Source of the DNA: Candidatus Poribacteria bacterium
GTDB taxonomy: Bacteria; Poribacteria; WGA-4E; WGA-3G
Assembly: GCA_965215265.1 (NCBI GenBank)
Contig: OZ244048.1
Coordinates: forward strand, 768,001-832,000
DNA length: 64,000 nucleotides
Direction of reading: 5' to 3'
A program made the translations under genes and the position numbers. This document shows positions 20,924 through 32,282 of this stretch, in pieces (within the stretch, counting starts at the first letter, position 1; each line of letters begins with the position of its first letter). The notes beneath the pieces were generated by a model, which worked only from the letters and a program-made list of their open reading frames with translations, did not search any database and was not told the origin of the DNA.

Positions 20924-22948
20924 TTAGTCTGAATTCAAACTCGGTGGCAACGTCTTCAGCCATGCGAGGTTAAACCGATAGTGTTGTCGGCTACTAATCA
21001 GATGAATTATACCGTTTTTACCTTGGCAGCCTGCGAGATAGCCCCCGGGCTCAGCACTGCTAATATCCATCGTAAAAGGTCGCCCATCCATCGTTTCGAT
21101 TTCGTGCCCAGCACTATCATCACTTATCAGGCGAACGTGTGTCCAAGTGTCCCCATCATCGTAGGAGAGTGCCCCAAATAGGCCCGTGACCGGACGTTCC
21201 TGACCAGAGGCATCCATAATCGGCATCGCTGCCGGATCTTGCCGTTCCCCAGTAAAAGATGCAAGAAATATCGGTCCCTCCTTGAGTCTGAGTAGCACGC
21301 AACGTTGACCACCCGAAAGGGGTGGAAACGACCCGGCACTATAAGACCAAGTTCTGCCTCCATCTGTAGAAATGCTTTTAGGCATCTGCCCGTTAATTGT
21401 ATCGCCACGCCCATAAGCCATGAGTCTACCATCTGTGAGCTCAACGACAGCGGCGTGAATCCCGGCGATCCATCCACCGGATTTTCCATCCGCGAACTCA
21501 GGGATAGGTTGAGCTGCTCCAGGGTCGTGCCAAGTTTCTCCGTCGTCCTCACTGAGCCAGATTGCGGTTCCACCGTTGCCTCCACTCACTGCATCGCAGG
21601 CAAGGAGTATAGAGCCGTCTTGCCGGCGGAAAACAGACGTAATGGGCATCTGTCGGAGTTGATGCTCCGGCGAGATAAACTGGGGACGCGTCCACGTCGC
21701 ACCATTATCATCGGAATAACGCATGACTAATGCCAAGGGGCCCCATGTCGCAGCGGCGGAGAGCCCGTTGAAGTGATAAATTCGCCCGTTCTCATTGCAC
21801 CAGAGGGCAGTGGCGTGATTATTTCTATCCGGTGCTCCCCAGAAAGGTTTCGCCGCTTCCCATTCGTTTTGTCCGTAACGCAATCGACTCGCCGCCACGG
21901 TTAATTCTCGACCGCGTTCAGTCACGCACGAGTACCATGCAGCGAAAAGGTCTCCGTTTAGGCACTCAACAATTGACGGAACATGGTTATGTGCTGAAAA
22001 CAGCGGCCCGTTTGAACCTTCCTGAATCTTTACATAAGGGATTGGATGTGCAAAATAAGGAGTATCAATAGCAGGCGATGTCGTAGCTGCTTGTTTTACT
22101 GTGCGCCCCCATAACGCCACTTTCGGGACTGGCAGCGGCCGAGTATCAGGCAGGGCAGCGCAAACGACACGGAACCCGATGTACCAGTGTTTATCTTCAG
22201 GCACAGCACCCATCCGATTGGCAGAGCGCAAATAACAGAGCAAAGTTGAATGACTGCCCCCACGTGTCACACGGTAGAGCCCATCTGCTCTGCCAACCGG
22301 GTCTTCCTGCAGATACGGTTCGTACGGGCCATACCAATCGTGGCACCACTCTTCTACATTGCCGTGCATATCGTATAACCCCCAGGCATTCGGTGGAGTT
22401 TGCCCAACATGTAGGGGCACCACCTCTTTTACGCCACGGCTCCGTCCTGCATCAGGGTACCAACTCTCTCCTACATTCTTATGAAAGATATCAGGGAGTG
22501 TGTCTCCGGTATGAAAATGCGTCGTTGTGCCTGCGCGACATGCGTATTCCCATTCAGCTTCGGTTGGCAGCCGATACGGGATGCCTTCGCGTTCGGAGAG
22601 CCATTCACAGAAGCGAGCAGCATCGTGCCAACTCACGAAAACAACTGCCTCACTGTCTGCCACTGAAAAATTAAGCTTCCCGCGCAGGCAGCGATGGTCT
22701 GACTCGAATTCTTCATACTGTGCATTCGTTACCTGAAAAGCTCCCATGTAGAACGGCGTGCTGAGCGTTACCTCATGCACCGGACGTTCGTCCCAGTCGC
22801 CTTCACGCAAGTACGCCTTACCCGCTGTCAATTCATCCGATAGTTGGACATCATCCGAACCCATTAGAAAGTTACCGGGTTCAATTCTAACCAACTGCAT
22901 CCCGAGTGAATTGGTATGGTGAGCACCTTTGATTGGAAGTTTTTGCAT
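20924..22948 (-). CDS. FGE-sulfatase (SUMF1/PvdO-like) domain fused to a BNR-repeat sialidase-like propeller
   Basis: RLPTEAEWEYACRAG, PNAWGLYDMHGNVEEW; Asp-boxes SDDNGATW, SEDDGETW, STDGGRTW, SYDDGDTW. Confidence 0.85.
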   Translation of the reverse strand: MQKLPIKGAHHTNSLGMQLVRIEPGNFLMGSDDVQLSDELTAGKAYLREGDWDERPVHEVTLSTPFYMGAFQVTNAQYEEFESDHRCLRGKLNFSVADSEAVVFVSWHDAARFCEWLSEREGIPYRLPTEAEWEYACRAGTTTHFHTGDTLPDIFHKNVGESWYPDAGRSRGVKEVVPLHVGQTPPNAWGLYDMHGNVEEWCHDWYGPYEPYLQEDPVGRADGLYRVTRGGSHSTLLCYLRSANRMGAVPEDKHWYIGFRVVCAALPDTRPLPVPKVALWGRTVKQAATTSPAIDTPYFAHPIPYVKIQEGSNGPLFSAHNHVPSIVECLNGDLFAAWYSCVTERGRELTVAASRLRYGQNEWEAAKPFWGAPDRNNHATALWCNENGRIYHFNGLSAAATWGPLALVMRYSDDNGATWTRPQFISPEHQLRQMPITSVFRRQDGSILLACDAVSGGNGGTAIWLSEDDGETWHDPGAAQPIPEFADGKSGGWIAGIHAAVVELTDGRLMAYGRGDTINGQMPKSISTDGGRTWSYSAGSFPPLSGGQRCVLLRLKEGPIFLASFTGERQDPAAMPIMDASGQERPVTGLFGALSYDDGDTWTHVRLISDDSAGHEIETMDGRPFTMDISSAEPGGYLAGCQGKNGIIHLISSRQHYRFNLAWLKTLPPSLNSD

Positions 22949-23239
22949 AGCCTAACCTATTTTTTGTCTATTGGAGTACCATAAAGGCGGCTGCTTTGAT
23001 AACACCTATACAAATCTCGCCAGAGCCGCTTTAGGCAGTGTTAATCACTTTTTCAGAATTGATGCTATTATACCAATTAACGCTGCATTTGTCAAAAAAT
23101 TGTCGGTTACTAGCAATTTGGGATGCTACTAGGGAAATTGTGCTGCTATAACTAGGGAAAATTTGCCTCTTGTGAACGAATTTACCACATCGATAATTGA
23201 ATTGACTGAAACTTTTTTTCACAGTGGCATTTGCCAAAT

Positions 23240-23255
23240 TGGCACAGAAATTGCC
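23240..23255 (+). promoter_or_regulatory. Sigma-54 (-24/-12) promoter 1
   Basis: TGGCACAGAAATTGCC = GG-N10-GC consensus. Confidence 0.7.
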
Positions 23256-23400
23256 AAGATAGTTGAAGAAACCAATTGCTATCAATGATAACAAGAGCAG
23301 GCACTTAACGCTACCCAGTAAAAAATTCCCTTCTGCCCCTGAAATTAGGGAAAAGGGTGCTAATGAACGAGGTGAGGGAAGGGTTCTCCTTTTTCTAAAT

Positions 23401-23416
23401 TGGCATAGAAATTGCT
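23401..23416 (+). promoter_or_regulatory. Sigma-54 (-24/-12) promoter 2, upstream of the ftsZ paralog
   Basis: TGGCATAGAAATTGCT, near-perfect RpoN consensus about 80 nt before the ATG. Confidence 0.8.
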
Positions 23417-23494
23417 ACTGTTACTGAGCGGACTAAACAATAGGAGGATAAAGTTGCATCACGTTTGTAAACGAAAACTAAAAGGAGTGAAAAC

Positions 23495-24421
23495 ATGCGA
23501 ACCAGAATGAAGGCCATCGGTGTAGGAAGCACGGGTGGAAACGCAGTCAAATACATGGCTCAAGCCGGATTAACAGGCGTTGATTTTTACGCGGTTGACA
23601 CACATGCACAATCCTTAGAGGCTTGCCTCAGTGTCACACGAATCCAGATTGGAATTAACACTACTAATGGGTTTAGTGCCGGTAATAATCCTGCGGTAGG
23701 CCGACAAGCGGCTGAAGAAAGTCGGGAACGGCTTGAAACCGTTGTCTCGGACGCAGATTTGATTTTCGTTATCGCCTATATAGGCGGAGGTACTGGGACT
23801 GGCGCAGCACCTGTGATTGCAACCTTGGCTCAAGCACGTGGGGCAGCCTTTACGATTGGTGTGGTAACGCTTCCTTTCAAATTTGAAGGAGAACAGCAAA
23901 TTGAACAAGCCGAAAAAGGATTGCAAAACCTCCTCGAGGTAGCCGATTCAGTCATCGTTGTACCGAACCAACAATTGATTATGGAGGGTAACCTATCAAG
24001 GCGAGAGGCATTCGGACGCAGCAACGAGATATTACGTCGGGGTGTTCAGTGTATCGCTGATATAATTGTAGACTCAGGAGAAATTAATGTCAATTTTGCC
24101 GATGTCAAATATATCATGCAGGTCCCTGGAAGCGCAATCATAGGGGTAGCCAGTGCAACCGGCAAAAACCGCGCGAAAATCGCAGCAGAATCTGCCGTTT
24201 CTTCACTATCCCTCGACGGGACGAATCTTGCAAGTGCATCTGGGCTGATAGTACGCATTGAGGCTCCGCCGGATTTCATAATGTCCGAGTTGGATCAGAC
24301 AATGCAGATTATTCAAAAAACATCAGCAGATGCTCAGATTATCTTTGGACTGTGCTACAGAGATGAATTGGAAATTGGGGATGAGGTTCACATGACTATT
24401 ATTGCAACCGGTTTGATGTAA
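23495..24421 (+). CDS. Divergent FtsZ/tubulin-family GTPase paralog lacking the C-terminal tail
   Basis: GGGTGTG signature, PFKFEG, INVNFADVK; ends at IIATGLM with no linker or C-terminal peptide; not in a dcw cluster. Confidence 0.85.
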   Translation: MRTRMKAIGVGSTGGNAVKYMAQAGLTGVDFYAVDTHAQSLEACLSVTRIQIGINTTNGFSAGNNPAVGRQAAEESRERLETVVSDADLIFVIAYIGGGTGTGAAPVIATLAQARGAAFTIGVVTLPFKFEGEQQIEQAEKGLQNLLEVADSVIVVPNQQLIMEGNLSRREAFGRSNEILRRGVQCIADIIVDSGEINVNFADVKYIMQVPGSAIIGVASATGKNRAKIAAESAVSSLSLDGTNLASASGLIVRIEAPPDFIMSELDQTMQIIQKTSADAQIIFGLCYRDELEIGDEVHMTIIATGLM

Positions 24422-24733
24422 CAACCGTAGACTTGCGACAGTGCAATTTAGTTTTAGCTCTTTTCGTGGATTTGCCGAGGAGGTCCCTCTTACAGCAGAG
24501 TCTTGCGATTTAGCGTGCTTTCTTAGGGGTTAACTAAATGGCCTTGGATTCGCGACGCTTGACATATTAAAAAAAACTGTTATCCTATACACCTGAAGGT
24601 GAACGTTACCAAGCGTTAGGGAAACCTCTACCTGTAACGCCAGAATAACGTTGCCCAGACATAGATGCCACCCGTGTTCACTCAGAAGCAGGAGAAATTA
24701 TCAAGCACCGTATAAACCAAAAAGAACCTGAGG

Positions 24734-25867
24734 ATGTTCATGCTAAACCGACCGGACTCAATCAGCAATCAGAAAAGTAGTACTACAAAGAATCCGAGAG
24801 ACTTGTTGCGTGGGAATTACGATGCCATCATTGGTAGTAGTCCGCGGCTCCTTGAGGTTCTCACACAAATTGAACGGTTTACAAAGACACCTTTAGAGGT
24901 AATCATTTCCGGGGAGACAGGAACTGGCAAGGAATTAGCAGCCCGTGCTTTGCACGCAAACAGTATGCGTTCAAAGGAAGCGATGATTGTAGTCAACTGT
25001 GCGGCGATTCCGGATGAACTGTTAGAAAGTCACCTATTCGGCCATGAAGCCGGAGCATTTACCGACGCGAAGCAGCAGCGCATCGGCAAGTTTGAACAAG
25101 CAGACAACGGAACGTTGTTTCTGGACGAAATCGCGGAACTACCGTTGTCACTTCAACCAAAGCTGCTACGGGCTCTTGAAACCGGAGAAATTGAGCGAGT
25201 GGGCGGTACAGCTTCCATTTCGGTAAATGTCCGGATTGTGGCAGCCACCAATCGCGTACTCGACTTAGCTATCAAAGAAGGAGGCTTTCGCAGAGACCTC
25301 TATCATCGATTAGATGGGTGCTCTATCCATCTACCACCTCTGCGCGAACGACTGGAAGACATCCCTGAGTTGGTGGAACACTTTGTGAAAAAGGCTCAAT
25401 TAGAAACGTTTTTTATTCAGCTGCCGCCTCTGCGTGAACGACTCTCAGCCGGAGATACTGGGCAAAAACCTCATTCAAACTCCACAAAACAGGAAGGCAA
25501 GATTGCTTGGCAGACGTTAGAACTCCTTAAAGGTTACGCATGGCCAGGGAATGTCCGAGAACTAAAAAAGGTAATGCTGTATGCGCTCATTCTTGCTGAG
25601 GGGAAAGTCATCTTACCAGCACATTTACCCAAAAAACTTCATTCAGCAGACGGGCAGCTCAGCAACAGTGGAAAAGCCATTGAACCTGTGCAAAAACAAC
25701 AAGCGGTATCTTTTCCGATTGGACTAACGTTGAAAGAGATTGAACAGAGATATATTCAGGAGACTTTAGCACAGATGGATGGAAATCGGACGCGCACAGC
25801 GAAGACTTTGGGCATTAGTCCAAAGACTTTGCGCAGCAAATTAAAAACGTACTCCGGGTCAAGGTAA
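24734..25867 (+). CDS. Sigma-54-dependent Fis-family activator (bEBP) without an N-terminal regulatory domain
   Basis: GETGTGKE, ESHLFGHEAGAFTDA, LFLDEI, WPGNVREL, C-terminal HTH GNRTRTAKTLGIS. Confidence 0.93.
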   Translation: MFMLNRPDSISNQKSSTTKNPRDLLRGNYDAIIGSSPRLLEVLTQIERFTKTPLEVIISGETGTGKELAARALHANSMRSKEAMIVVNCAAIPDELLESHLFGHEAGAFTDAKQQRIGKFEQADNGTLFLDEIAELPLSLQPKLLRALETGEIERVGGTASISVNVRIVAATNRVLDLAIKEGGFRRDLYHRLDGCSIHLPPLRERLEDIPELVEHFVKKAQLETFFIQLPPLRERLSAGDTGQKPHSNSTKQEGKIAWQTLELLKGYAWPGNVRELKKVMLYALILAEGKVILPAHLPKKLHSADGQLSNSGKAIEPVQKQQAVSFPIGLTLKEIEQRYIQETLAQMDGNRTRTAKTLGISPKTLRSKLKTYSGSR

Positions 25868-26219
25868 TCACTCACCGCGTTAGAGTAAACCTAAAAATAT
25901 CCGGGCCTTTTCTTTAATTTATGTTAGAATCGTTATCTCATGAGATAAAAAAACAGAACGCAATAGAAATGTTGGTGTTTTCAAAGCATAGATTGTGTAT
26001 GGGTTCCTTGTAGAAAAGCAAAGCCGTCTTGTGTAAAAAGACATTGAGACAGTTTTGCTGCATACGAACCTGGAGCGCTACACGGTACGGGTTCTAGTAA
26101 TATGAGTTCTTGTAGTAGTAGCTGCCACCGGAATTTACGGTGCAAGTATGTGCCATGGAAGTTCCCGCGGGGAGCGTCTTACTGTATCTGCAAGAGCAAC
26201 TAAAAGCGGTGTCGGGGGG

Positions 26220-26657
26220 CTAATTTCCACAAGCGCTGCAACCGCGCCCATCACAATTATTGCAATCATCGTCGTCTGGCGGATCACACGTGTCGCAACC
26301 GGATCCATCACAATCGTAGCAGTTATCCTCTGGACCATCAAGAACATCCCAGAGAGCAACACCTGCACCCACGATACCTGCGCCCGCTGCAATGCCGCCT
26401 GCTAGAGGTACCCATGCAGGTGCTGTGGCGGTAGCGGCTGCAGCACCACCGGCCCAGGCGATACCACCGGCCACAGCTGCTAAGATTCCGGCCCCCGCTG
26501 CAATTTCCTCTCGAGGATCTCCGTCGTCTCCATGGCGATCGCTGCAGATCTCGGGAGTGACGGACACCAAGATACAGAAAGTTACCGTTACCGTCGCGAT
26601 GAAGTTGAGCAACGATACCTTTTTCTTCCACGTTGGATGTATGGATTTGTTAGACAT
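26220..26657 (-). CDS. Putative exported glycine-zipper protein with C-terminal CxxCxGxGC repeats
   Basis: Hydrophobic N-terminal segment; Gly/Ala-rich hydrophobic hairpin; CYDCDGSGCDTC and CNNCDGRGCSAC; AAAGAGG upstream. Confidence 0.7.
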   Translation of the reverse strand: MSNKSIHPTWKKKVSLLNFIATVTVTFCILVSVTPEICSDRHGDDGDPREEIAAGAGILAAVAGGIAWAGGAAAATATAPAWVPLAGGIAAGAGIVGAGVALWDVLDGPEDNCYDCDGSGCDTCDPPDDDDCNNCDGRGCSACGN

Positions 26658-27015
26658 TTATAGCCTCTTTACTATATTTGTCAATGCGACTTGAGGCTTT
26701 CTCCACAATCGCTTTCCAATGCTGTGACTCAGAATCTACGCACTCTCGCAATGGTTACACTCAGGTTCGGTGATTGCATCTATTATCTTGCCACCAAGAC
26801 TAACGGCCTGCTTGATAAGCTCTATAATAGGTTGTACCAGATTACAACTGTCCCAAGGCATCTGTCGCTATAAACAATGGCATAGTGCTTGACTCGCCCG
26901 TTGAACAGCGAACCAAGGAGTCATTGTTTGCTGTAAAAACATGAAATTCTCCTATCTCATTTCGCAGGAGACGTGCCTCATATTACCACATCTCCTACTT
27001 TAACTTCAATAAATC

Positions 27016-27084
27016 AACGAAAGTGAATATACATTCCCTCTTTTGAATCCAAAACAAGGACAAACCTGAAGCAGCCTGAATCGC
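27016..27084. repeat. 69-bp direct repeat, copy 1 (other copy 31106-31174)
   Basis: 63/69 identical by manual alignment. Confidence 0.9.
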
Positions 27085-27090
27085 GTTTTC

Positions 27091-27150
27091 GTATAGCTCC
27101 GTACCATCAACGTCTAGGTAATGATAGCTCGTGTGTAAATCTCGTCTGAG
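27091..27150. repeat. Dispersed ~60-bp repeat (CTCCGTACC...CTCGTGTGTAAATCTCGTC family)
   Basis: Related copies at 49248-49307 and 51496-51552; inverted copy about 51667-51720. Confidence 0.8.
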
Positions 27151-27225
27151 CCTCTTGATGTTTTGTCTCTAAAATGTTCCTGAACACGTTCACGAATCTT
27201 CCAACAGCGCGACTTCGCCGTGTTC
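27113..27225 (-). pseudogene. 3' remnant of a paralogous ECF sigma factor
   Basis: Minus strand reads NTAKSRCWKIRERVQEHF versus NTAKSRWRKIRQIVFKHF at the end of the 31178-31762 sigma; GACTTCGCCGTGTTC is shared. Confidence 0.8.
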
Positions 27226-27685
27226 ACTAAGAGTGATTAAGTTTGTGGCGGGGAATTCCCGTTTTTTTACATGTCGTGCGTTTTTCTCGACATCTATAAA
27301 AAGCACTCAGCAAATGGGGCCTGGGAACCTTGTGTTTTTAGGGTTTAGCAGGTATGGTGCTCTTCTATTTATAAGAAAGGCGATCAGGACGATGTGGCGT
27401 GCGCACCGTGTAAACTTGGCGGCGCATCAGTTTTGTGCATCCGTTTTATCACGGCATGGAGGTCAAGGAATTTCAACCGAGTGCGACATCATCCCGCGAG
27501 ATGACGGCACTCTATCAGTAGCTTAGCAAGGAATCGGAGATCGGCAGGGAAAAGGTAATCGTAGTAGGTGACGAACTATAGATGGCATCCCACCCACCCA
27601 ATTCCTCTGTCCTTCAGGACAGAGAAAGAATACCTTATCCTGCTACAAAGCGTGTGCTTCAGGACACGCCTTTTTATACCGAGTC

Positions 27686-28579
27686 TTACTGCTTAAGTCG
27701 TGCCCAAATAGTGGCGAGCTTTCCTTCTGCTTCGACTGCAAGCGCAATGCCGGTCTTTGCGCCATTTTTACCCGTCAGATGATGCACATTCCCCGAGGCA
27801 TCTAAGAAGGTCGCCGTGCCAGCAGGCTCATCAAAATGCCACAATGCCACCGTTTTTGCGTCATTCTTGAACTGGCCGTCTGGCATAAAACCCTTTTTCT
27901 CAACATCATAACGTGCAACCCTCGAGATGCGGACCTCATCAATATATCCCGTGAAGGAACCCCACAATACTTTGGATGGCGGACGACCAGGCACCTCAAT
28001 TATCTTTCCAAACCCTCCAAGCATGAAGTCCTTTGGAAGCAAAGCACGAGGATCAAGATCATGTCCGAGGGGGTGATCTTGTTGTATTGTCTTTACGAAA
28101 TCATTGACAATCATTGTTGTCTGAGGTCCATTCGACTGATAAGCGATGTGGTGCCATTGGTTCGGCTCCAGCGGGATCGGGAAAGATATTCTCCGACCGA
28201 ACATTCCCTCAATATAGGCACTCATTAGCAAGATAAAGTCTCCCTTCGGAGGCTCTATATTATGCCCATTAGCCAGATTATTTAGCAGCGGTTGATATTC
28301 ATCGTTCACGAGAGTCAGACGCACCTGTTGATGGAGTATCGTCAATAACGTGTCCTTGTTGTCGGGCGGTGTGGTGGGATATATCCAGGCTTCAACGGTG
28401 AACTTCTTCGTGCCGTTCGGTAAAATCCTACCGAAGGTTTCAAAATCTAAGACGGCGTGATCGTCAACGCCGTCAAGGACTAAATAGTTTCCACCAGCCG
28501 GTGAAGAGGGCGGGAGTGCTTTGGCACTCAGCGGAAGGAATATAAGTAAGAGCCATGCGAGGCGTTGCCGGTATCTCAT
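27686..28579 (-). CDS. Exported LamG/concanavalin A-like domain protein
   Basis: Signal peptide, FTVEAWIYP, QWHHIA, GYIDEVRIS, ALWHFDE; tail AVEAEGKLATIWARLKQ. Confidence 0.85.
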   Translation of the reverse strand: MRYRQRLAWLLLIFLPLSAKALPPSSPAGGNYLVLDGVDDHAVLDFETFGRILPNGTKKFTVEAWIYPTTPPDNKDTLLTILHQQVRLTLVNDEYQPLLNNLANGHNIEPPKGDFILLMSAYIEGMFGRRISFPIPLEPNQWHHIAYQSNGPQTTMIVNDFVKTIQQDHPLGHDLDPRALLPKDFMLGGFGKIIEVPGRPPSKVLWGSFTGYIDEVRISRVARYDVEKKGFMPDGQFKNDAKTVALWHFDEPAGTATFLDASGNVHHLTGKNGAKTGIALAVEAEGKLATIWARLKQ

Positions 28580-28733
28580 TTTTTTCTCTCCTTTTCGTAT
28601 ATAAGCTTGTGAGTTTCGTTGTAAATCTCAGTTTTCAGTGCCGGAGCGGCCACCGTTTCTATTCTCTCTTAAAGCCACTTTTTTGTCAAAAAACAGGCAG
28701 AATCTGAAAAAAGTTGAAAAAAATAGCCCACGC

Positions 28734-29039
28734 TTAAACGTCTAAAATTGTGCAATGCCAGAGAGATTCAATCGTGGCATAATCTGTCACGTCTCGCTGA
28801 AGATGCACATGGGTCTCACGCCACAACTTCGCCGTGCTTTTCAAGAGTTGTTTCAACTGATGTAGGTAGTCTGCCAAAGATGTCGCCTGAATCTGAGCCG
28901 CGAGGTGTTTTATCTCTCTAATATGTTGTAACCGTTTCGCCTCGTTCCACCGTTGATAAGCAAACGGACCAATAACAACAACCGTCAGAATCAGCGTCAG
29001 CAATATGTACTTTTTCACAAAAAACTTCAGTCTCCACAA
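28734..29039 (-). CDS. Small membrane-anchored hypothetical protein (possibly a fragment)
   Basis: One N-terminal TM helix; no recognisable motif. Confidence 0.35.
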   Translation of the reverse strand: MWRLKFFVKKYILLTLILTVVVIGPFAYQRWNEAKRLQHIREIKHLAAQIQATSLADYLHQLKQLLKSTAKLWRETHVHLQRDVTDYATIESLWHCTILDV

Positions 29040-29302
29040 TTTTAGGCAATTGTCAGCCTTTTTTTTAGGCGAGTTTCGGGTTTTGAATTTTCCCTAGTGG
29101 GTAAACAGTTGCTTGTTCAACCTGCCTCAACAGCACAAAATGGGGTTCAATGCGACAGATTTTTCGTTCGTCAGATTCGACTTCAACTTTCAGAGCCACG
29201 CCAGATGTTTTTGGATATCAGTGAGCATTTTCATATTACGGCTTCAGTTGTCCCCACGGGGTTGTGAGTTTTCCTCTGATTCGACTGCCAGTAGGTTGAA
29301 TG

Positions 29303-29335
29303 AAGCGAGGACTTAGTAATGATAAGTCCTCGCTT
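29303..29335. terminator. Perfect 13-bp inverted repeat downstream of the Cys-rich peptide gene
   Basis: AAGCGAGGACTTA-7 nt-TAAGTCCTCGCTT. Confidence 0.6.
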
Positions 29336-29378
29336 ATCTTATGTGAAAAGCCGTCTTACTTATAAACGGCTGCCCACT

Positions 29379-29636
29379 TTAATAACAACAGTCCTGCCAC
29401 GCATGATTGTCATCACTGAACCAACAACACCCGGGAGGGTCCGTACACCAAGTGTTATCACACTCTACTTGCCGCACACATGCTTCGGCTTCGGGTGCGA
29501 GCATCAGTGAGCTAAGGATTGCGCCTGTTACGACAGCCCCAGCGACTAAGGCGTTCTTATGCGCAACATGCCCATCTTCTTTGACGAAGAAATCGCTGAG
29601 ACGCTGTTTCGTCAGTTGGGCTATGTGAGTTTGCAT
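29379..29636 (-). CDS. Small Cys-rich exported peptide / RiPP-precursor-like
   Basis: AAGGAG RBS; leader ending in APEAEA; 33-aa core with 7 Cys and 3 Trp; downstream hairpin. Confidence 0.75.
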   Translation of the reverse strand: MQTHIAQLTKQRLSDFFVKEDGHVAHKNALVAGAVVTGAILSSLMLAPEAEACVRQVECDNTWCTDPPGCCWFSDDNHAWQDCCY

Positions 29637-30046
29637 GAGATTTTGTCTCCTTCACTTTGTAGTAGAACCGGTAATGTTTTAACCAGAGATGCACAAAACA
29701 TCTCAAATGTAGCAAACAACACCGCTTCTTAAAATTAAAAGTAGAGGGTTTTCGGTAAAATAATGATGAGATAGAGTGCCCTCATAACACTCTTTTCCCA
29801 GACTCGTCCGACATTACCCCGACAGTCCCACAGGCTGGTAAACCGTTGGTGCCGTGGGTAGCTTTCGACGAGGCGACAATTCTGTTTGTGTTGCTGTGAG
29901 GTGTGCGTCATCAATAACTTGTCCGCTTTCAGCAACTGTATCGTTTCGATACGAGATTTGAACCGACGCTTGAAATCGTTAACGTGCCTGACGTATGGTT
30001 CTTGATGTCGTATAGAAGCCATCTAAGAGAACACTTCTTAGAGGTA

Positions 30047-30889
30047 TCATTGTGTTTTGACTGTGAGCGGGATGCCGATCTTTGCGCCATTTTTACCCGC
30101 CAGATGGTGAGCATTCCCCGATGCATCCGAGAATATCCGCGTTCCGCCCGGCTCATCAAAATGCCACAACGCCACTGTCTTTGCGTCATTCTTGAACTTG
30201 CTGTGCGGCGTGAAACCAGTTTTATCGACATCGTAACGAGGAATCGTTGAGATGCGAACCTCATCAATATATCCCGCAAAAGCACCCCAGAAGTGGTTGT
30301 GATGCTTGGAACCAATTTTCTCTCCAAAGCCCCCAAGCACAAAATCCTTTGGACGCTCTAGACTTGACAGATCGTGTGCAATCGTTGTAGTTCGGCGTGA
30401 ACTGGCTGTCCAATTGTTAACGATTGTTGTTATTTGATGCCCATTCGCTTGGATAGCGATGTGATACCATTGTTTCAGCGGAAATGCTCTCGGGTGGTAG
30501 CCTGTCTCAGAGACCTCTCCACTGTGCGTAACATGCGCTTGAATTCTTAGGAATAAATCTCCTTTCTGCCACTCGATATCCTTTCTTATGCCCTCCCATC
30601 CAACGTGAACGTCGTTGACAACATCCATCCGCACCTGTTGGCTGAGTATCATTGCATGTATCTCATCGGCAGGCGGTGTGGTGGGATATATCCACGCTTC
30701 AACAGTAAATTCGTCCGTGCCTTCGGGTAAAAGTGTCCCGAAGGTTTCAAAATCTAGAACGGCGTAGTCATCAACTCCGTCAAGGGCTAAATAGTTTCCA
30801 CCAGCCGGTGAAGGGGGTGGGAGTGCTTTAGTACTCAGCGGCATGAAAACAAGCAAAAAGAGATAGGTAAGGATGTGTCGGTGTCTCAT
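30047..30889 (-). CDS. Exported LamG domain protein, paralog of 27686-28579, lacking the C-terminal W motif
   Basis: Near-identical N- and C-terminal segments to the 27686 paralog; ends GIPLTVKTQ. Confidence 0.85.
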   Translation of the reverse strand: MRHRHILTYLFLLVFMPLSTKALPPPSPAGGNYLALDGVDDYAVLDFETFGTLLPEGTDEFTVEAWIYPTTPPADEIHAMILSQQVRMDVVNDVHVGWEGIRKDIEWQKGDLFLRIQAHVTHSGEVSETGYHPRAFPLKQWYHIAIQANGHQITTIVNNWTASSRRTTTIAHDLSSLERPKDFVLGGFGEKIGSKHHNHFWGAFAGYIDEVRISTIPRYDVDKTGFTPHSKFKNDAKTVALWHFDEPGGTRIFSDASGNAHHLAGKNGAKIGIPLTVKTQ

Positions 30890-31105
30890 TGAAAAGTCCT
30901 TTCTGATAGGGGATTGACATGAGAACGCAAAGAGAGTGTGTTTTGCATCTGTGGCAATCCTCTGTATTGTATTAAGGTGCTAACCGAAACATCCCACAAA
31001 ACAACTCCATTCTATGATATACTTTCGGTTAGTGCCGTCATTTCACTCTCAACTCGCAGTAGACATGGCTCATATCATCACGATCACGTCTGCTGCATCA
31101 TAGTA

Positions 31106-31174
31106 AACGAAAGTTAACATACATTCCCTCTTTTGAGTCCAAAAAAGGGATAAACCTGAAGCAGCCTGAATCGC
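31106..31174. repeat. 69-bp direct repeat, copy 2, immediately downstream of the ECF sigma gene
   Basis: Matches 27016-27084. Confidence 0.9.
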
Positions 31175-31177
31175 ACG

Positions 31178-31762
31178 TTAGGACTTCTCGTTTTTCGGCG
31201 GAAACGGCACACCGAAATGCTTGAAGACGATCTGCCTAATCTTCCGCCACCTAGACTTCGCCGTGTTCTCAGGGATATTCAAACGAACCCCTATCTCAGG
31301 AAAAGTCAAACCCTGTTCACGTAATCTCGCTACTTCTACATACTTGGAACCCAGCTTCCTGATAACCGTCATCGCCTTTTCTTCATCAGACACGTCTCGA
31401 GGCAGATGCCGGCGTGACTCTCGCTCCTCTGCGTCCCACCGGATATCTATGGCGATAGCAAACGCATCCTGTTCTTTAGCAAGCTGCCGCCCGAAATCGA
31501 GACATTTGCTCCGCGTCACCTGCTTCACCCACTTGTCCACGGCGCGGATGCCGTGAGGATTCCTGCGAAACCTGACCACTATTGCCGCACGCGCATCTAA
31601 ATACACATCCTCTACCGCGTAAGCCGGCACCTCCCGGCGGACGATACTCATCATCAGCGGTTTATACTTGTCAAGGAGTGCCACGAGGGCGGCATCGTCC
31701 CCTTTTTGGATGCGTTCAAGTAAGTGAGTGTCTGAATTCGTTGTCAAAGTTTCAGGTTCCAT
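31178..31762 (-). CDS. ECF-type sigma-70 factor
   Basis: SDTHLLERIQKGDDAALVALLDKY (region 2), GLTFPEIGVRLNIPENTAKSR (region 4 HTH). Confidence 0.85.
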   Translation of the reverse strand: MEPETLTTNSDTHLLERIQKGDDAALVALLDKYKPLMMSIVRREVPAYAVEDVYLDARAAIVVRFRRNPHGIRAVDKWVKQVTRSKCLDFGRQLAKEQDAFAIAIDIRWDAEERESRRHLPRDVSDEEKAMTVIRKLGSKYVEVARLREQGLTFPEIGVRLNIPENTAKSRWRKIRQIVFKHFGVPFPPKNEKS

Positions 31763-31936
31763 GTGCTATTCTTAAGGTGTCGGAAAAAGTGAAATATGTC
31801 CCGCCACCTTACAAGTGATTAAATTTGTCGCGGGAAGTCACCGTTTTTTTTATATTTCGTTCATTTTTTTCCGCCATCTATAAGAACAAGACGTAAAAAA
31901 AAAGCAAAACGGTCACACGATGTAAAAATTCATAAA

Positions 31937-31968
31937 TTTGTAACAAATTTGTAACAAGTTTGTCACAA
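31937..31968. promoter_or_regulatory. Three 11-bp-period direct repeats TTTGT(A/C)ACAA, putative regulator binding site
   Basis: TTTGTAACAA-A-TTTGTAACAA-G-TTTGTCACAA in the divergent intergenic region. Confidence 0.55.
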
Positions 31969-32282
31969 TTTCAGGTAAAAAATGCGAATTAGGGGCGTGC
32001 AGATGGAAAAAAAACGCGTTTTCTTAGAAAAATTGATGTCTTCGTTCTTACAATTTTTCCCACATTTGCAGGTTCGCGTGCAAAACGCGTGCGTTTTTTT
32101 CACACATGTGCCTAAGTTTAAAAAAACTTTTTTCAGAATAAACAAAACTGCAAAAGAATGCCGAACCGCTTCGGATAAAAAAAATAAATACTTGACTTTT
32201 TTTTAAAATTCTGATATATTTAAAATATATTGGATATTTTGGAACTTCCTGTTTTTTTGAATAATATGATGAGAGAGTTTTT

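What the first reader, a model, noticed from the sequence alone, without database searches (positions are those of the whole stretch)
23100..25867. Sigma-54-controlled, tail-less, divergent FtsZ paralog paired with a sensor-less sigma-54 activator
Seen: a 308-aa FtsZ-fold protein outside any dcw cluster. It keeps GGGTGTG but alters other conserved positions: GGGG to GSTG, NTD to DTH, GLGAG to GFSAG, FEGxxR to FEGEQQ, and T7 loop NxDxxD to NVNFAD. It ends right after the globular core. It follows RpoN consensus promoters, and the next gene is a bEBP with only AAA+ and HTH domains. Established: the FtsZ C-terminal peptide binds FtsA/SepF/ZipA, T7-loop aspartates drive GTP hydrolysis, and sensor-less bEBPs such as PspF are controlled in trans. 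Inference: an inducible, non-division FtsZ module, either a distinct filament system, a division inhibitor that co-polymerises with the main FtsZ, or a partner regulating the bEBP.
Basis: partly seen in the sequence, partly recalled or inferred. Interest (0 to 1): 0.75.

Follow-up and report, generated by a model that had tools for sequence, protein, structure and literature searches.

The report
Sigma-54-driven tail-less pseudo-FtsZ with activator
A sponge-symbiont bacterium carries, besides its normal division gene ftsZ, a second tail-less copy that has lost residues needed to build filaments, sits behind stress-type (sigma-54) promoters beside its own activator gene, and in a sister genus is fused to the DNA sliding clamp.

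Summary
ORF 23495-24421 (+) encodes a 308-aa FtsZ-fold protein that ends at the globular core. Two exact sigma-54 -24/-12 sites precede it, and a 377-aa sensor-less sigma-54 activator (bEBP) follows at 24734-25867.

The genome (Candidatus Poribacteria by its nearest hits) also has a canonical 427-aa FtsZ with the C-terminal peptide, and it has rpoN.

The locus is collinear with three genomes of a sister genus. There the same position holds a beta-clamp (DnaN)-FtsZ fusion, behind a conserved sigma-54 promoter and before the orthologous bEBP. That bEBP shares a 26-aa insert with the window's.

The paralog belongs to a Poribacteria-only FtsZ clade. Its other members are fused to ECF sigma factors and to a truncated DnaE.

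Three of six residues that experiments show are needed for FtsZ assembly or catalysis are replaced: D46H, R143Q and D210N (S. aureus numbering). A self-assembling filament is therefore unlikely.

My best reading (about 0.4) is an inducible, non-polymerising modulator of the main FtsZ. The rivals are a trans-regulator of the bEBP (0.25) and a decaying remnant in this genome (0.2). The fused relatives are under purifying selection (dN/dS 0.23-0.25). I found no paper describing any of this.

The parts
22960..23047 (.). Copy of a dispersed short intergenic repeat, between the FGE-sulfatase/BNR gene and the promoter region
   Evidence: 30 blastn hits in the genome. Word depth in public-run contigs is up to about 30 times that of the flanks, and many contigs end here. 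Earlier notes on this genome describe the same kind of repeat.
23128..23166 (+). Two direct ACTAGGGAAA(A)TT repeats 23 nt apart; candidate activator-binding site (inferred)
   Evidence: Repeat family D7. CTAGGGAAA occurs 13 times in the genome, 2 of them here. No other TGGCAY-N5-TTGC site in the genome lies within 400 nt of a CTAGGGAAA or TAGGGAAAA motif. G002 has CTAGGGACAAAA about 63 nt before its -24 element by my count of the sequence.
23240..23255 (+). Sigma-54 promoter P1 (TGGCACAGAAATTGCC), 255 nt before the start codon
   Evidence: Exact -24/-12 match. It lies in a 25-nt direct repeat with P2, spacing 161 nt, 88% identical (D1).
23343..23354 (+). Third TAGGGAAAA motif, about 56 nt before P2
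   Evidence: Repeat family D2; motif position.
23401..23416 (+). Sigma-54 promoter P2 (TGGCATAGAAATTGCT), 94 nt before the start codon
   Evidence: The core TGGCA...AAATTGC is identical in G000 P1, G000 P2, G002 and G007. rpoN is present in the genome.
23484..23487 (+). Ribosome-binding site GGAG, 7 nt before the ATG
   Evidence: Read from the sequence.
23495..24421 (+). Tail-less, interface-degenerate FtsZ paralog, 308 aa
   Evidence: The ORF is intact in contigs of runs from three other studies, partly covered in one of them.
24422..24733 (+). 312-nt spacer with a sigma-70-like promoter match at 24559-24586; no terminator-like site on the + strand
   Evidence: promoter 10 of 12; the only two terminator-like hits in 22900-26300 are on the - strand. 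No Rfam match. Fold no better than shuffles, z = +0.94. Only ORFs of 36 aa or fewer.
24734..25867 (+). Sensor-less sigma-54 activator (bEBP), 377 aa, with GAFTDA loop
   Evidence: Orthologs are found only in G000 and in 3 of 3 genus-g2 genomes, out of 159 genomes of the order.
25394..25471 (+). 26-aa insert in the AAA+ lid (residues about 221-246), with a second LPPLRERL and an invariant Q222-L223-x-x-F226
   Evidence: Alignment with 3 orthologs and 5 other bEBPs; invariant columns.
25631..25636 (+). A6 run inside the bEBP gene; one public-run contig has A7, a frameshift before the HTH domain

Best explanation
Shown: this is a real, intact gene for a 'pseudo-FtsZ'.
- It has an FtsZ globular core derived from the Poribacteria FtsZ.
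- It lacks the linker and the C-terminal peptide that tether FtsZ to the membrane.
- Three of the six residues needed for longitudinal assembly and GTP hydrolysis are replaced.
- It is the middle part of a conserved three-part module: sigma-54 promoter(s), FtsZ paralog, and a sensor-less bEBP with an insert.

Inferred mechanism:
1. The neighbouring bEBP, switched on by a signal it receives in trans, opens the sigma-54 promoters.
2. The paralog accumulates.
3. It cannot build its own dynamic filament or reach the membrane. It therefore acts by binding the canonical FtsZ (59% identical core), either monomers or a filament end, and slows or blocks Z-ring turnover. That would make it a conditional division brake.

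In the sister genus the same domain is carried on a beta-clamp. This suggests the ancestral module linked the brake to the replisome.
For: Gene, fold and module:
- Gene and fold are established.
- A second, canonical ftsZ with a tail is present.
- rpoN is present.
- 45 strict sigma-54 sites occur genome-wide, against about 14 extrapolated from the window shuffles. They include sites 41-191 nt before dnaK, clpB, hsp20 (two in tandem) and glnA, so sigma-54 serves stress genes in this organism.

Orthology:
- Flanks on both sides are collinear with G007 and G002.
- The bEBP is 58-61% identical over its full length and shares the insert.
- A sigma-54 site lies 111 nt (G002) and 140 nt (G007) before the start codon.
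- In the tree the window paralog is sister to 10 DnaN-FtsZ rows (UFboot 97 / SH-aLRT 94), inside a 26-row paralog clade (96/97).

Selection:
- Genus-g2 FtsZ domains give dN/dS 0.23-0.25 at dS 0.33-0.51.
- The window paralog's branch (0.42) is not longer than the path to its fused sisters (0.23 + 0.22 + about 0.12).
- It changes 36 of 137 canonical-invariant columns, against 34-39 in the fusions.
- The ORF has no stop or indel in any of the three other studies' runs that cover it.

Residue mapping through the alignment to PDB 7oja:
- H37 = D46, Q135 = R143, N200 = D210 (replaced).
- Q39 = Q48, N198 = N208, D203 = D213 (kept).
- Ruiz et al. 2022 (PMC8936486, passages) report that D46A, R143Q and D210N each suppress SaFtsZ assembly. 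They also report that bottom-interface mutations block division and are toxic, whereas top-interface ones are not.

Precedent: the truncated paralog FtsZ1 of A. tumefaciens inhibits division when expressed continuously (PMC13732431, abstract) and likely co-polymerises with the main FtsZ (same paper, passage citing Howell et al. 2019).
Against: - No binding or expression data exist for this protein.
- Both faces of the subunit carry inactivating-type changes: top face D46H and R143Q, bottom face D210N. It may therefore dock on canonical filaments poorly or not at all.
- Changes unique to this genome cluster in the nucleotide pocket: G12S, D37H, G61S, G95Y and R135Q.
- The protein is a singleton. 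The next-best hit among the candidates scored from a 5.8-billion-protein database is 61% identical. The other genome of the same genus has no trace of the module at the collinear site.
- Within-population variants are 5 nonsynonymous to 3 synonymous (pN/pS about 0.5). That is too few to separate constraint from neutrality.
- The AU test does not formally reject a recent genus-level duplication (p = 0.069, 23 lnL units worse).
- That the neighbouring bEBP is the activator of P1/P2 is inferred from conserved adjacency only.
Confidence: 0.4

Rival explanations
1. The FtsZ-like protein is the trans-acting regulator, or signal input, of the neighbouring sensor-less bEBP. It would work as PspA does for PspF: it holds the activator off, or on, until its own state changes through nucleotide binding, through binding the divisome, or (in the sister genus) through the clamp. 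The module would then be a transcriptional switch that reads the state of division or replication.
For: - The paralog clade is repeatedly tied to transcription initiation factors. 15 of the 26 clade rows in the tree come from ORFs with an N-terminal extension; the 8 of these I scanned, spanning all its sub-branches, carry ECF sigma regions.
- The other 11 rows are the window protein and DnaN-FtsZ forms. For all 4 of these with DNA in hand, the insert-bearing bEBP is the next gene.
- One sigma-fused form keeps only the N-terminal GTPase domain (399-407 aa), so filament building is not what that clade member is kept for.
- Adjacency has survived saturated synonymous divergence (dS above 1.5) inside an otherwise variable region.
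- The bEBP has no sensor domain.
- Its orthogroup-specific insert carries an invariant QLxxF. This resembles the beta-clamp-binding motif QL[SD]LF (recalled, not tested) and would fit docking on the DnaN part in the sister genus.
Against: No FtsZ-family protein is known to bind a bEBP (my knowledge; literature searches found nothing). Position 4 of the QLxxF motif is T or R, not hydrophobic. The window protein has no DnaN part. Nothing here tests binding.
Confidence: 0.25
2. In this genome the gene is a recently disabled remnant. The module lost its N-terminal partner domain and its key residues, and it is on the way out, as it already is in the sister species.
For: - It is the only unfused member of the 26-row paralog clade.
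- Changes unique to this genome sit at pocket and interface positions that are otherwise invariant even in the other paralogs: D37H, G95Y, L119F, G219A and L239S.
- G001 of the same genus lacks the module entirely.
- Population variants are 5 nonsynonymous to 3 synonymous in the paralog. One run shows a frameshift in the bEBP (A6 to A7) before the HTH domain.
- A dispersed repeat and a 161-nt promoter duplication show recent rearrangement just upstream.
Against: - 308 codons are open at saturated synonymous divergence from every relative (dS 1.6-2.5).
- The branch is no longer than those of selected sisters.
- A good GGAG ribosome-binding site and two exact promoters are kept.
- In run X9 the coding regions vary less than the spacer: 6 of 865 nt and 6 of 1134 nt, against 6 of 312 nt.
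- The ORF is intact in runs of three other studies.
- The model folds with confidence, although the alignment drives that result.
Confidence: 0.2
3. It forms its own cytoskeletal filament, independent of the division ring.
For: It has the full FtsZ core fold, keeps GGGTGTG, and keeps Q48, N208 and D213 equivalents.
Against: R143Q and D210N are exactly the changes that abolish assembly of S. aureus FtsZ, and D46 is also replaced. There is no membrane-tethering tail. There is no partner gene for anchoring in the module.
Confidence: 0.05

Closest known systems
Truncated FtsZ paralogs of Rhizobiaceae/Phyllobacteriaceae, e.g. Agrobacterium tumefaciens FtsZ1 (Aubry et al. 2026, PMC13732431, abstract and passages; Howell et al. 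preprint 10.1101/412759, search listing only)
   Same: Both are extra ftsZ copies outside the dcw cluster that keep the GTPase core and lack the C-terminal motifs. The known ones are thought to tune or inhibit division by joining the main FtsZ.
   Different: - Independent origin: this paralog clade branches inside Poribacteria FtsZ.
- FtsZ1 is reported as GTPase-active and co-polymerising. This protein has lost D46, R143 and D210.
- This one is under sigma-54 control with a dedicated bEBP.
- Its orthologs are fused to a beta-clamp.
- I did not see such fusions or Poribacteria mentioned in that paper ('fusion', 'fused', 'sigma' and 'Poribacteria' each occur 0 times).
Engineered S. aureus FtsZ interface mutants D46A, R143Q, D210N (Ruiz et al. 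2022, PMC8936486, passages; PDB 7oja, 7ojd)
   Same: The window protein naturally carries Q at R143 and N at D210, and H at D46. Its best PDB sequence hit is the D210N mutant itself.
   Different: Those are single laboratory mutations in a division FtsZ. Here three are combined in a natural paralog that is 42% identical to SaFtsZ, so transfer of the phenotype is an inference.
PspF-PspA and HrpS-HrpV: sensor-less bEBPs held in check by a separate protein (recalled from general knowledge)
   Same: The activator has only AAA+ and HTH domains. A neighbouring gene is transcribed from a sigma-54 promoter, and the candidate regulator comes from a polymer-forming family.
   Different: This bEBP is not a PspF ortholog: TIGR02974 scores 268.6 bits against a cut-off of 443.55. 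The partner is FtsZ-like rather than PspA/ESCRT-III-like. The genes run in the same direction rather than divergently.
Inducible protein inhibitors of FtsZ: SulA, MciZ, MipZ (MciZ capping as described in PMC8936486; MipZ in PMC9897490, passages; SulA recalled)
   Same: These are conditional brakes on Z-ring assembly that work by capping or sequestering FtsZ.
   Different: None of them is an FtsZ homolog. Here the brake would be a disabled FtsZ subunit.
FtsZm of Magnetospirillum (recalled; only a search listing seen)
   Same: A tail-less FtsZ paralog with a role outside ordinary division.
   Different: It is encoded in a magnetosome operon and reported as an active polymerising GTPase (recalled). 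It has no sigma-54 module.

Membership tests
FtsZ (cell-division protein, TIGR00065 equivalog) | Tubulin/FtsZ GTPase domain plus FtsZ C-terminal (GTPase-activating) domain | tested here: met
   PF00091 1.3e-37 and PF12327 3.7e-17. Model TM 0.95 to B. subtilis FtsZ.
FtsZ (cell-division protein, TIGR00065 equivalog) | Score above the curated equivalog cut-off | tested here: not met
   288.4 bits against a cut-off of 295.2.
FtsZ (cell-division protein, TIGR00065 equivalog) | Tubulin signature GGGTGTG (T4 loop) | tested here: met
   IGGGTGTGAAP at residues 96-106.
FtsZ (cell-division protein, TIGR00065 equivalog) | Six conserved interface/catalytic residues D46, Q48, R143, N208, D210, D213 (SaFtsZ numbering; Ruiz et al. 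2022) | tested here: not met
   3 of 6 are kept (Q39, N198, D203) and 3 are replaced (H37, Q135, N200), by the alignment to 7oja; the residue roles come.
FtsZ (cell-division protein, TIGR00065 equivalog) | Flexible linker and conserved C-terminal peptide that binds FtsA/ZipA/SepF | tested here: not met
   The ORF stops at ...IIATGLM. The canonical copy ends ...DWDMPAFLRVQKKGTPQK.
Truncated FtsZ paralogs of Hyphomicrobiales (FtsZ1 type) | Descent from the Rhizobiaceae/Phyllobacteriaceae duplication | tested here: not met
   The window protein and its clade branch within family-f1 Poribacteria FtsZ. It is the same kind of protein but of separate origin.
Bacterial enhancer-binding protein (sigma-54 activator) | Sigma-54 interaction AAA+ domain with Walker A | tested here: met
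   PF00158 7.2e-67; GETGTGKE present.
Bacterial enhancer-binding protein (sigma-54 activator) | GAFTGA loop that contacts sigma-54 | tested here: inconclusive
   The loop reads GAFTDA. The same variant is in all 3 orthologs and in one further Poribacteria bEBP; two others have GAYTDA, one GAFTSA and one GAFTGA. It is typical of the lineage, but its activity is untested.
Bacterial enhancer-binding protein (sigma-54 activator) | C-terminal Fis-type HTH | tested here: met
   PF02954 1.1e-13, residues 332-373.
PspF (phage-shock activator) | Score above the equivalog cut-off | tested here: not met
   TIGR02974 scores 268.6 against 443.55; NF008622 scores 230.5 against 529.
Sigma-54-dependent promoter | GG and GC elements spaced as TGGCAY-N5-TTGC, upstream of a gene, in a genome that has rpoN | tested here: met
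   The sites are conserved in G002 and G007.
Sigma-54-dependent promoter | Transcription start and dependence on sigma-54 and the bEBP | not testable with these tools
   No RNA run was listed.

The most novel reading that the evidence does not exclude
Poribacteria have turned spare copies of cell-cycle machines (FtsZ, the beta-clamp, the DNA polymerase III alpha subunit) into input domains for transcription factors. In most lineages these copies are fused in cis to ECF sigma factors. In this lineage they are paired in trans with a sensor-less sigma-54 activator.

The window's pseudo-FtsZ would then be a PspA-like switch protein. It would report the state of the divisome or replisome to its bEBP, and the whole set would be a previously unseen way of coupling gene expression to division and replication. 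A sigma-clamp fusion would be a cellular, fused counterpart of clamp-activated late transcription in phages T4 and Mu.
Probability: 0.2. Interest if true: 0.9.

Novelty: new variant of a known kind. Interest (0 to 1): 0.7.

Why it matters
Tail-less FtsZ duplicates are known, but why they are kept is an open question. This one comes with unusually clear clues:
- a dedicated sigma-54 switch;
- natural versions of laboratory 'assembly-dead' mutations;
- orthologs welded to the DNA sliding clamp.

That makes a specific idea directly testable with a few purified proteins: a disabled FtsZ subunit used as a regulated brake or sensor that links replication, division and transcription.

The wider set of sigma-FtsZ, sigma-clamp and sigma-FtsZ-DnaE fusions in the same bacterial family is, as far as my searches show, undescribed. 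If it is real biology, it points to a new class of input domains for ECF sigma factors. The organisms are uncultured sponge symbionts, so all tests must be heterologous.

Tried and rejected
- Complex prediction of the bEBP with the paralog, each given as an alignment: no verdict (score 0.16, mark 0.32, controls not run). This is not evidence either way.
- RNA evidence: no RNA holder was listed among 21 runs, so expression is untested.
- Metagenome scan with the bEBP alignment: the patterns chosen were generic. 596 relatives were found and 80 kept, the best 47% identical, none orthologous.
- Search for a dnaN remnant upstream of the paralog: the best E-values were 0.66-0.95 against an 800-nt subject, which is noise. 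Whether this genome lost DnaN or the sister lineage gained it is not resolved by the tree or by parsimony.
- Rfam on 22000-27000 at E up to 1: no match. The 312-nt spacer folds no better than shuffles and holds only ORFs of 36 aa or fewer.
- Defence reading: PADLOC gave no hit for the paralog, the DnaN-FtsZ, sigma-FtsZ or sigma-FtsZ-DnaE proteins. The bEBP matched only through its generic AAA+/HTH part (RtcR/PspF models). I dropped a decoy-sensor defence idea to mere speculation.
- Short proteins P0005 (338 aa) and P0054 (330 aa) looked like other tail-less forms. They are canonical-type sequences with cut tails and were set aside.
- Earlier notes of this scan: nothing on this locus or on look-alike sequences.
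- Du et al. 2018 (PMC6196554) is not held. I used the statement about toxic bottom-face mutants as worded in PMC8936486.
- Rows left out of trees: the two sigma-FtsZ forms with the N-domain only (too short), and the long-branched G036 second copy.


Full report
**What is there**

The window belongs to a single-contig 4.83-Mb genome. Its nearest FtsZ relatives are named Candidatus Poribacteria by their sources. Earlier notes of this scan also call it a sponge-associated Poribacteria genome.

ORF 23495-24421 (+) encodes 308 aa with the Pfam Tubulin and FtsZ_C domains. It scores 288.4 bits on the FtsZ equivalog model, just below the 295.2 cut-off. An AlphaFold2 model built on 41 sequences is confident (pLDDT 90.5, pTM 0.90). 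It superposes on B. subtilis FtsZ at TM 0.95.

The stop-to-stop frame is 316 aa, so there is no room for a hidden N-terminal domain. The protein ends at the last core strand. A GGAG lies 7 nt before the ATG.

The next gene, 24734-25867 (+), is a 377-aa sigma-54 activator. It has the AAA+, lid and Fis-type HTH domains and no sensor domain. It is not a PspF ortholog by score.

The genome has rpoN. It also has a second, canonical ftsZ of 427 aa with a linker and a ...DWDMPAFLR... C-terminal peptide. The two cores are 59% identical, 183 of 309 positions.

**Promoters**

The only two exact TGGCAY-N5-TTGC matches in the 64-kb window are at 23240 and 23401, which is 255 and 94 nt before the start codon. 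They lie in a 25-nt direct repeat 161 nt apart. By chance alone this would be weak: the strict pattern gives 1 match against 0.18 expected, and 18 of 100 shuffles reach 1.

Conservation supplies the weight. The orthologous genes of G002 and G007 have TGGCACGGAAATTGCA and TGGCACGAAAATTGCT at 111 and 140 nt before their starts. The core is identical in all four promoters.

Genome-wide there are 45 strict sites. That compares with about 14 if the window's shuffle rate is scaled up, which is my extrapolation. Strict sites lie 41-191 nt before dnaK, clpB, an hsp20 gene (two in tandem) and glnA. Sigma-54 is therefore in real use here, and it serves stress genes.

An ACTAGGGAAA motif occurs twice, 23 nt apart, before P1, and TAGGGAAAA occurs once before P2. 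No other TGGCAY-N5-TTGC site in the genome has either motif within 400 nt. It is a candidate binding site for the neighbouring activator, but that is inference.

**Relatives and orthology**

In 40 related genomes and in a 5.8-billion-protein collection, the best non-self hit is 61% identical and is an ordinary FtsZ. The 308-aa protein is a singleton.

The locus, however, is not. The genes on both sides (window 17.9-22.9 kb and 32.3-34.7 kb) are collinear with genus g2 and with the same-genus genome G001.

At the same position G002, G007 and G010 carry a 693-706-aa protein; the G010 copy is cut by a contig end at 631 aa. This protein is a complete beta-clamp (three DnaN Pfam domains) joined by about five residues to an FtsZ core, and it also ends right after that core. 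The next gene is a 358-aa bEBP, 58-61% identical to the window's. The two bEBPs share a GAFTDA loop and a 26-aa insert with a second LPPLRERL and an invariant QLxxF.

With a threshold of E 1e-95, this bEBP is found in 4 of 159 genomes of the order: G000 and 3 of 3 genomes of genus g2. G001 has 5 kb of unrelated ORFs at the site and no remnant. No dnaN remnant lies before the window gene. The genome's own dnaN genes are two tandem 367-aa copies elsewhere.

**Phylogeny**

All non-canonical FtsZ domains of family f1 form one clade: 26 rows, UFboot 96 / SH-aLRT 97. Within it, the window protein is sister to 10 DnaN-FtsZ rows (97/94) (the quick tree agrees).

An AU test of the alternative, a recent duplication of this genus's own FtsZ, gives a tree 23 lnL units worse but p = 0.069, which is not a formal rejection. 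Synteny and the shared bEBP insert are independent support for orthology.

The rest of the clade comes from ORFs with N-terminal extensions. The 8 I scanned, spanning all its sub-branches, are fused N-terminally to ECF sigma regions:
- sigma-FtsZ, 551-615 aa;
- sigma-FtsZ-DnaE, residues 1 to about 810-880 of DnaE, 1340-1490 aa in total.

Outside the tree, a form with sigma and only the FtsZ N-domain is 399-407 aa.

G012 and G022 keep a normal 1176-aa DnaE as well, so the fused polymerase is a paralog. The protein database also holds 13 clusters of DnaN-FtsZ and many sigma-DnaN proteins of about 576 aa.

Extra FtsZ copies are a family-f1 trait. 23 of 24 other f1 genomes have two or more matches, against 1 of 16 in the other three families.

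**Is it alive?**

Evidence that it is functional:
- The fused orthologs are under purifying selection. The FtsZ part gives dN/dS 0.23-0.25, the DnaN part 0.24 and the bEBP 0.10-0.15, at dS 0.3-0.5.
- For the window gene, dS to every relative is saturated (1.6-2.5), yet 308 codons are open.
- Its branch (0.42) is no longer than the path to its fused sisters.
- It alters 36 of 137 columns that are invariant in 21 canonical sequences, against 34-39 in the fusions.
- The 3-kb stretch is held almost word for word (0.59-1.00 of sampled words) in runs of five coded studies. One of these may be the source sample.
- Contigs of three other studies cover the ORF without stop or indel.

Evidence against:
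- The variants seen are 5 nonsynonymous to 3 synonymous in the paralog, and 4 to 3 in the bEBP.
- One contig adds an A to an A6 run, which would cut off the bEBP's HTH domain.
- In that same contig the spacer varies more (6 of 312 nt) than the two genes (6 of 865 and 6 of 1134 nt).

These counts are too small to decide.

**What the residues say**

The best PDB sequence match is, tellingly, the S. aureus FtsZ D210N mutant (7oja). Using that alignment:
- Paralog H37, Q135 and N200 stand at D46, R143 and D210. These are replaced.
- Q39, N198 and D203 stand at Q48, N208 and D213. These are kept.

Ruiz et al. 2022 (passages read) name exactly these six residues as key for association or hydrolysis. 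They show that D46A, R143Q, N208L, D210N and D213N each suppress assembly, and that R143Q is incompetent for polymerisation and catalysis. They also note that bottom-face (T7 side) mutations are toxic and block division, while top-face ones do not.

The g2 fusions keep R143 and, in G002 and G007 but not G010, D46. They have lost Q48 and, variably, N208 and D210. That is a mostly bottom-face defect, the pattern expected of a capping subunit.

The window protein has defects on both faces. It also has changes unique to this genome in the nucleotide pocket: G12S, G61S and G95Y.

**Reading**

A self-assembling, hydrolysing filament is unlikely. The protein cannot reach the membrane through FtsA-type anchors.

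The most economical function is a regulated, non-polymerising binder of the main FtsZ, made when the bEBP opens the sigma-54 promoters. A truncated FtsZ paralog that inhibits division on continuous expression is already documented in A. tumefaciens (abstract of PMC13732431). I give this reading about 0.4.

The repeated pairing of this clade with transcription factors (sigma fused in cis, bEBP in trans) keeps a regulator-of-the-bEBP reading alive at about 0.25. Decay in this one genome stays at about 0.2. The single complex-prediction job gave no verdict.

**Novelty**

Full-text searches found no paper on FtsZ paralogs or fusions of this kind:
- 'Poribacteria' + 'FtsZ': 15 papers, of which I saw the 13 listed titles and abstract starts; none appears to be on paralogs.
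- 'ECF sigma' + 'C-terminal extension' + 'FtsZ': 1 unrelated paper.
- 'FtsZ paralog' + 'sigma-54': 0 papers.
- 'FtsZ' + 'DnaN' + 'fusion protein' + 'domain architecture' + 'sigma factor': 0 papers.

The window gene itself is a new variant of a known kind, the truncated FtsZ paralog. The family-wide fusions noticed along the way may be the more novel matter.

Noticed in passing
L044:9899-11554 (-), L045:7058-11170 (-), L047, L049, L056, L059, L060; protein P0139: Family-f1 Poribacteria encode ECF sigma regions 2 and 4 fused in one frame to paralogs of housekeeping proteins. The forms seen are sigma-FtsZ (551-615 aa), sigma plus the FtsZ N-domain only (399-407 aa), sigma-FtsZ-DnaE truncated at about residue 810-880 (1340-1490 aa), and sigma-DnaN (about 572-576 aa, many clusters). 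G012 and G022 also keep a normal 1176-aa DnaE. A sigma-clamp fusion recalls clamp-activated late transcription of phages T4 and Mu (PMC2988020, PMC7892883, PMC12867686; search listing only).
   Followed up: partly
G000:C1:4303169 (+), 573462 (-), 1344852 and 1344936 (+), 2714735 (+); outside the window: Strict sigma-54 -24/-12 sites lie 41-191 nt upstream of dnaK, clpB, an hsp20-family gene (two tandem sites 84 nt apart) and glnA (gene identities confirmed with NCBIfam). Heat-shock chaperones therefore appear to be sigma-54-dependent in this organism.
   Followed up: partly
window 22960-23047: A dispersed short repeat has 30 blastn hits in the genome. Its depth in public-run contigs is far above that of the flanks, and contigs break there. 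It sits directly upstream of the duplicated promoter region.
   Followed up: partly
G000:C1:2762687-2763790 and 2763867-2764970 (-); outside the window: Two tandem, very similar dnaN genes of 367 aa each, neither fused to a sigma domain.
   Followed up: no
window 25631-25636: An A6 run in the bEBP gene is A7 in the contig of one public run (depth 26.5). This shifts the frame before the HTH domain. It could be a real polymorphism, a slippage-prone tract or an assembly error.
   Followed up: no
window 25394-25471 (bEBP residues about 221-246): The orthogroup-specific insert repeats LPPLRERL and holds an invariant Q-L-x-x-F (QLETF here, QLTRF in genus g2). This resembles the beta-clamp-binding motif (recalled), which is suggestive because the neighbouring gene in g2 starts with a beta-clamp.
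   Followed up: no
L042:1814-2833 (-), L043:3989-5008 (-): Genus g2 has a second sensor-less bEBP of 339 aa (GAYTDA loop, no insert) 5-9 kb downstream in the same region. The window genome has no counterpart.
   Followed up: no
window 25868-32282: The stretch between the bEBP and the next collinear gene differs between G000, G001 and G007. Here it holds a 145-aa Cys/Gly/Asp-rich ORF with no family match (26220-26657, -) and two Laminin_G-type genes (27686-28579 and 30047-30889, -). The module sits in a variable hotspot.
   Followed up: no
L001:742-2025 (-) = G000:C1:3.97 Mb; FtsA at G000:C1:2463366-2463860: The canonical ftsZ of this genome is not next to ftsA or a dcw cluster either.
   Followed up: partly
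L021 and L055 (G013): One relative (G013) has two canonical-type FtsZ genes (439 and 415 aa) as well as a sigma-FtsZ.
   Followed up: no
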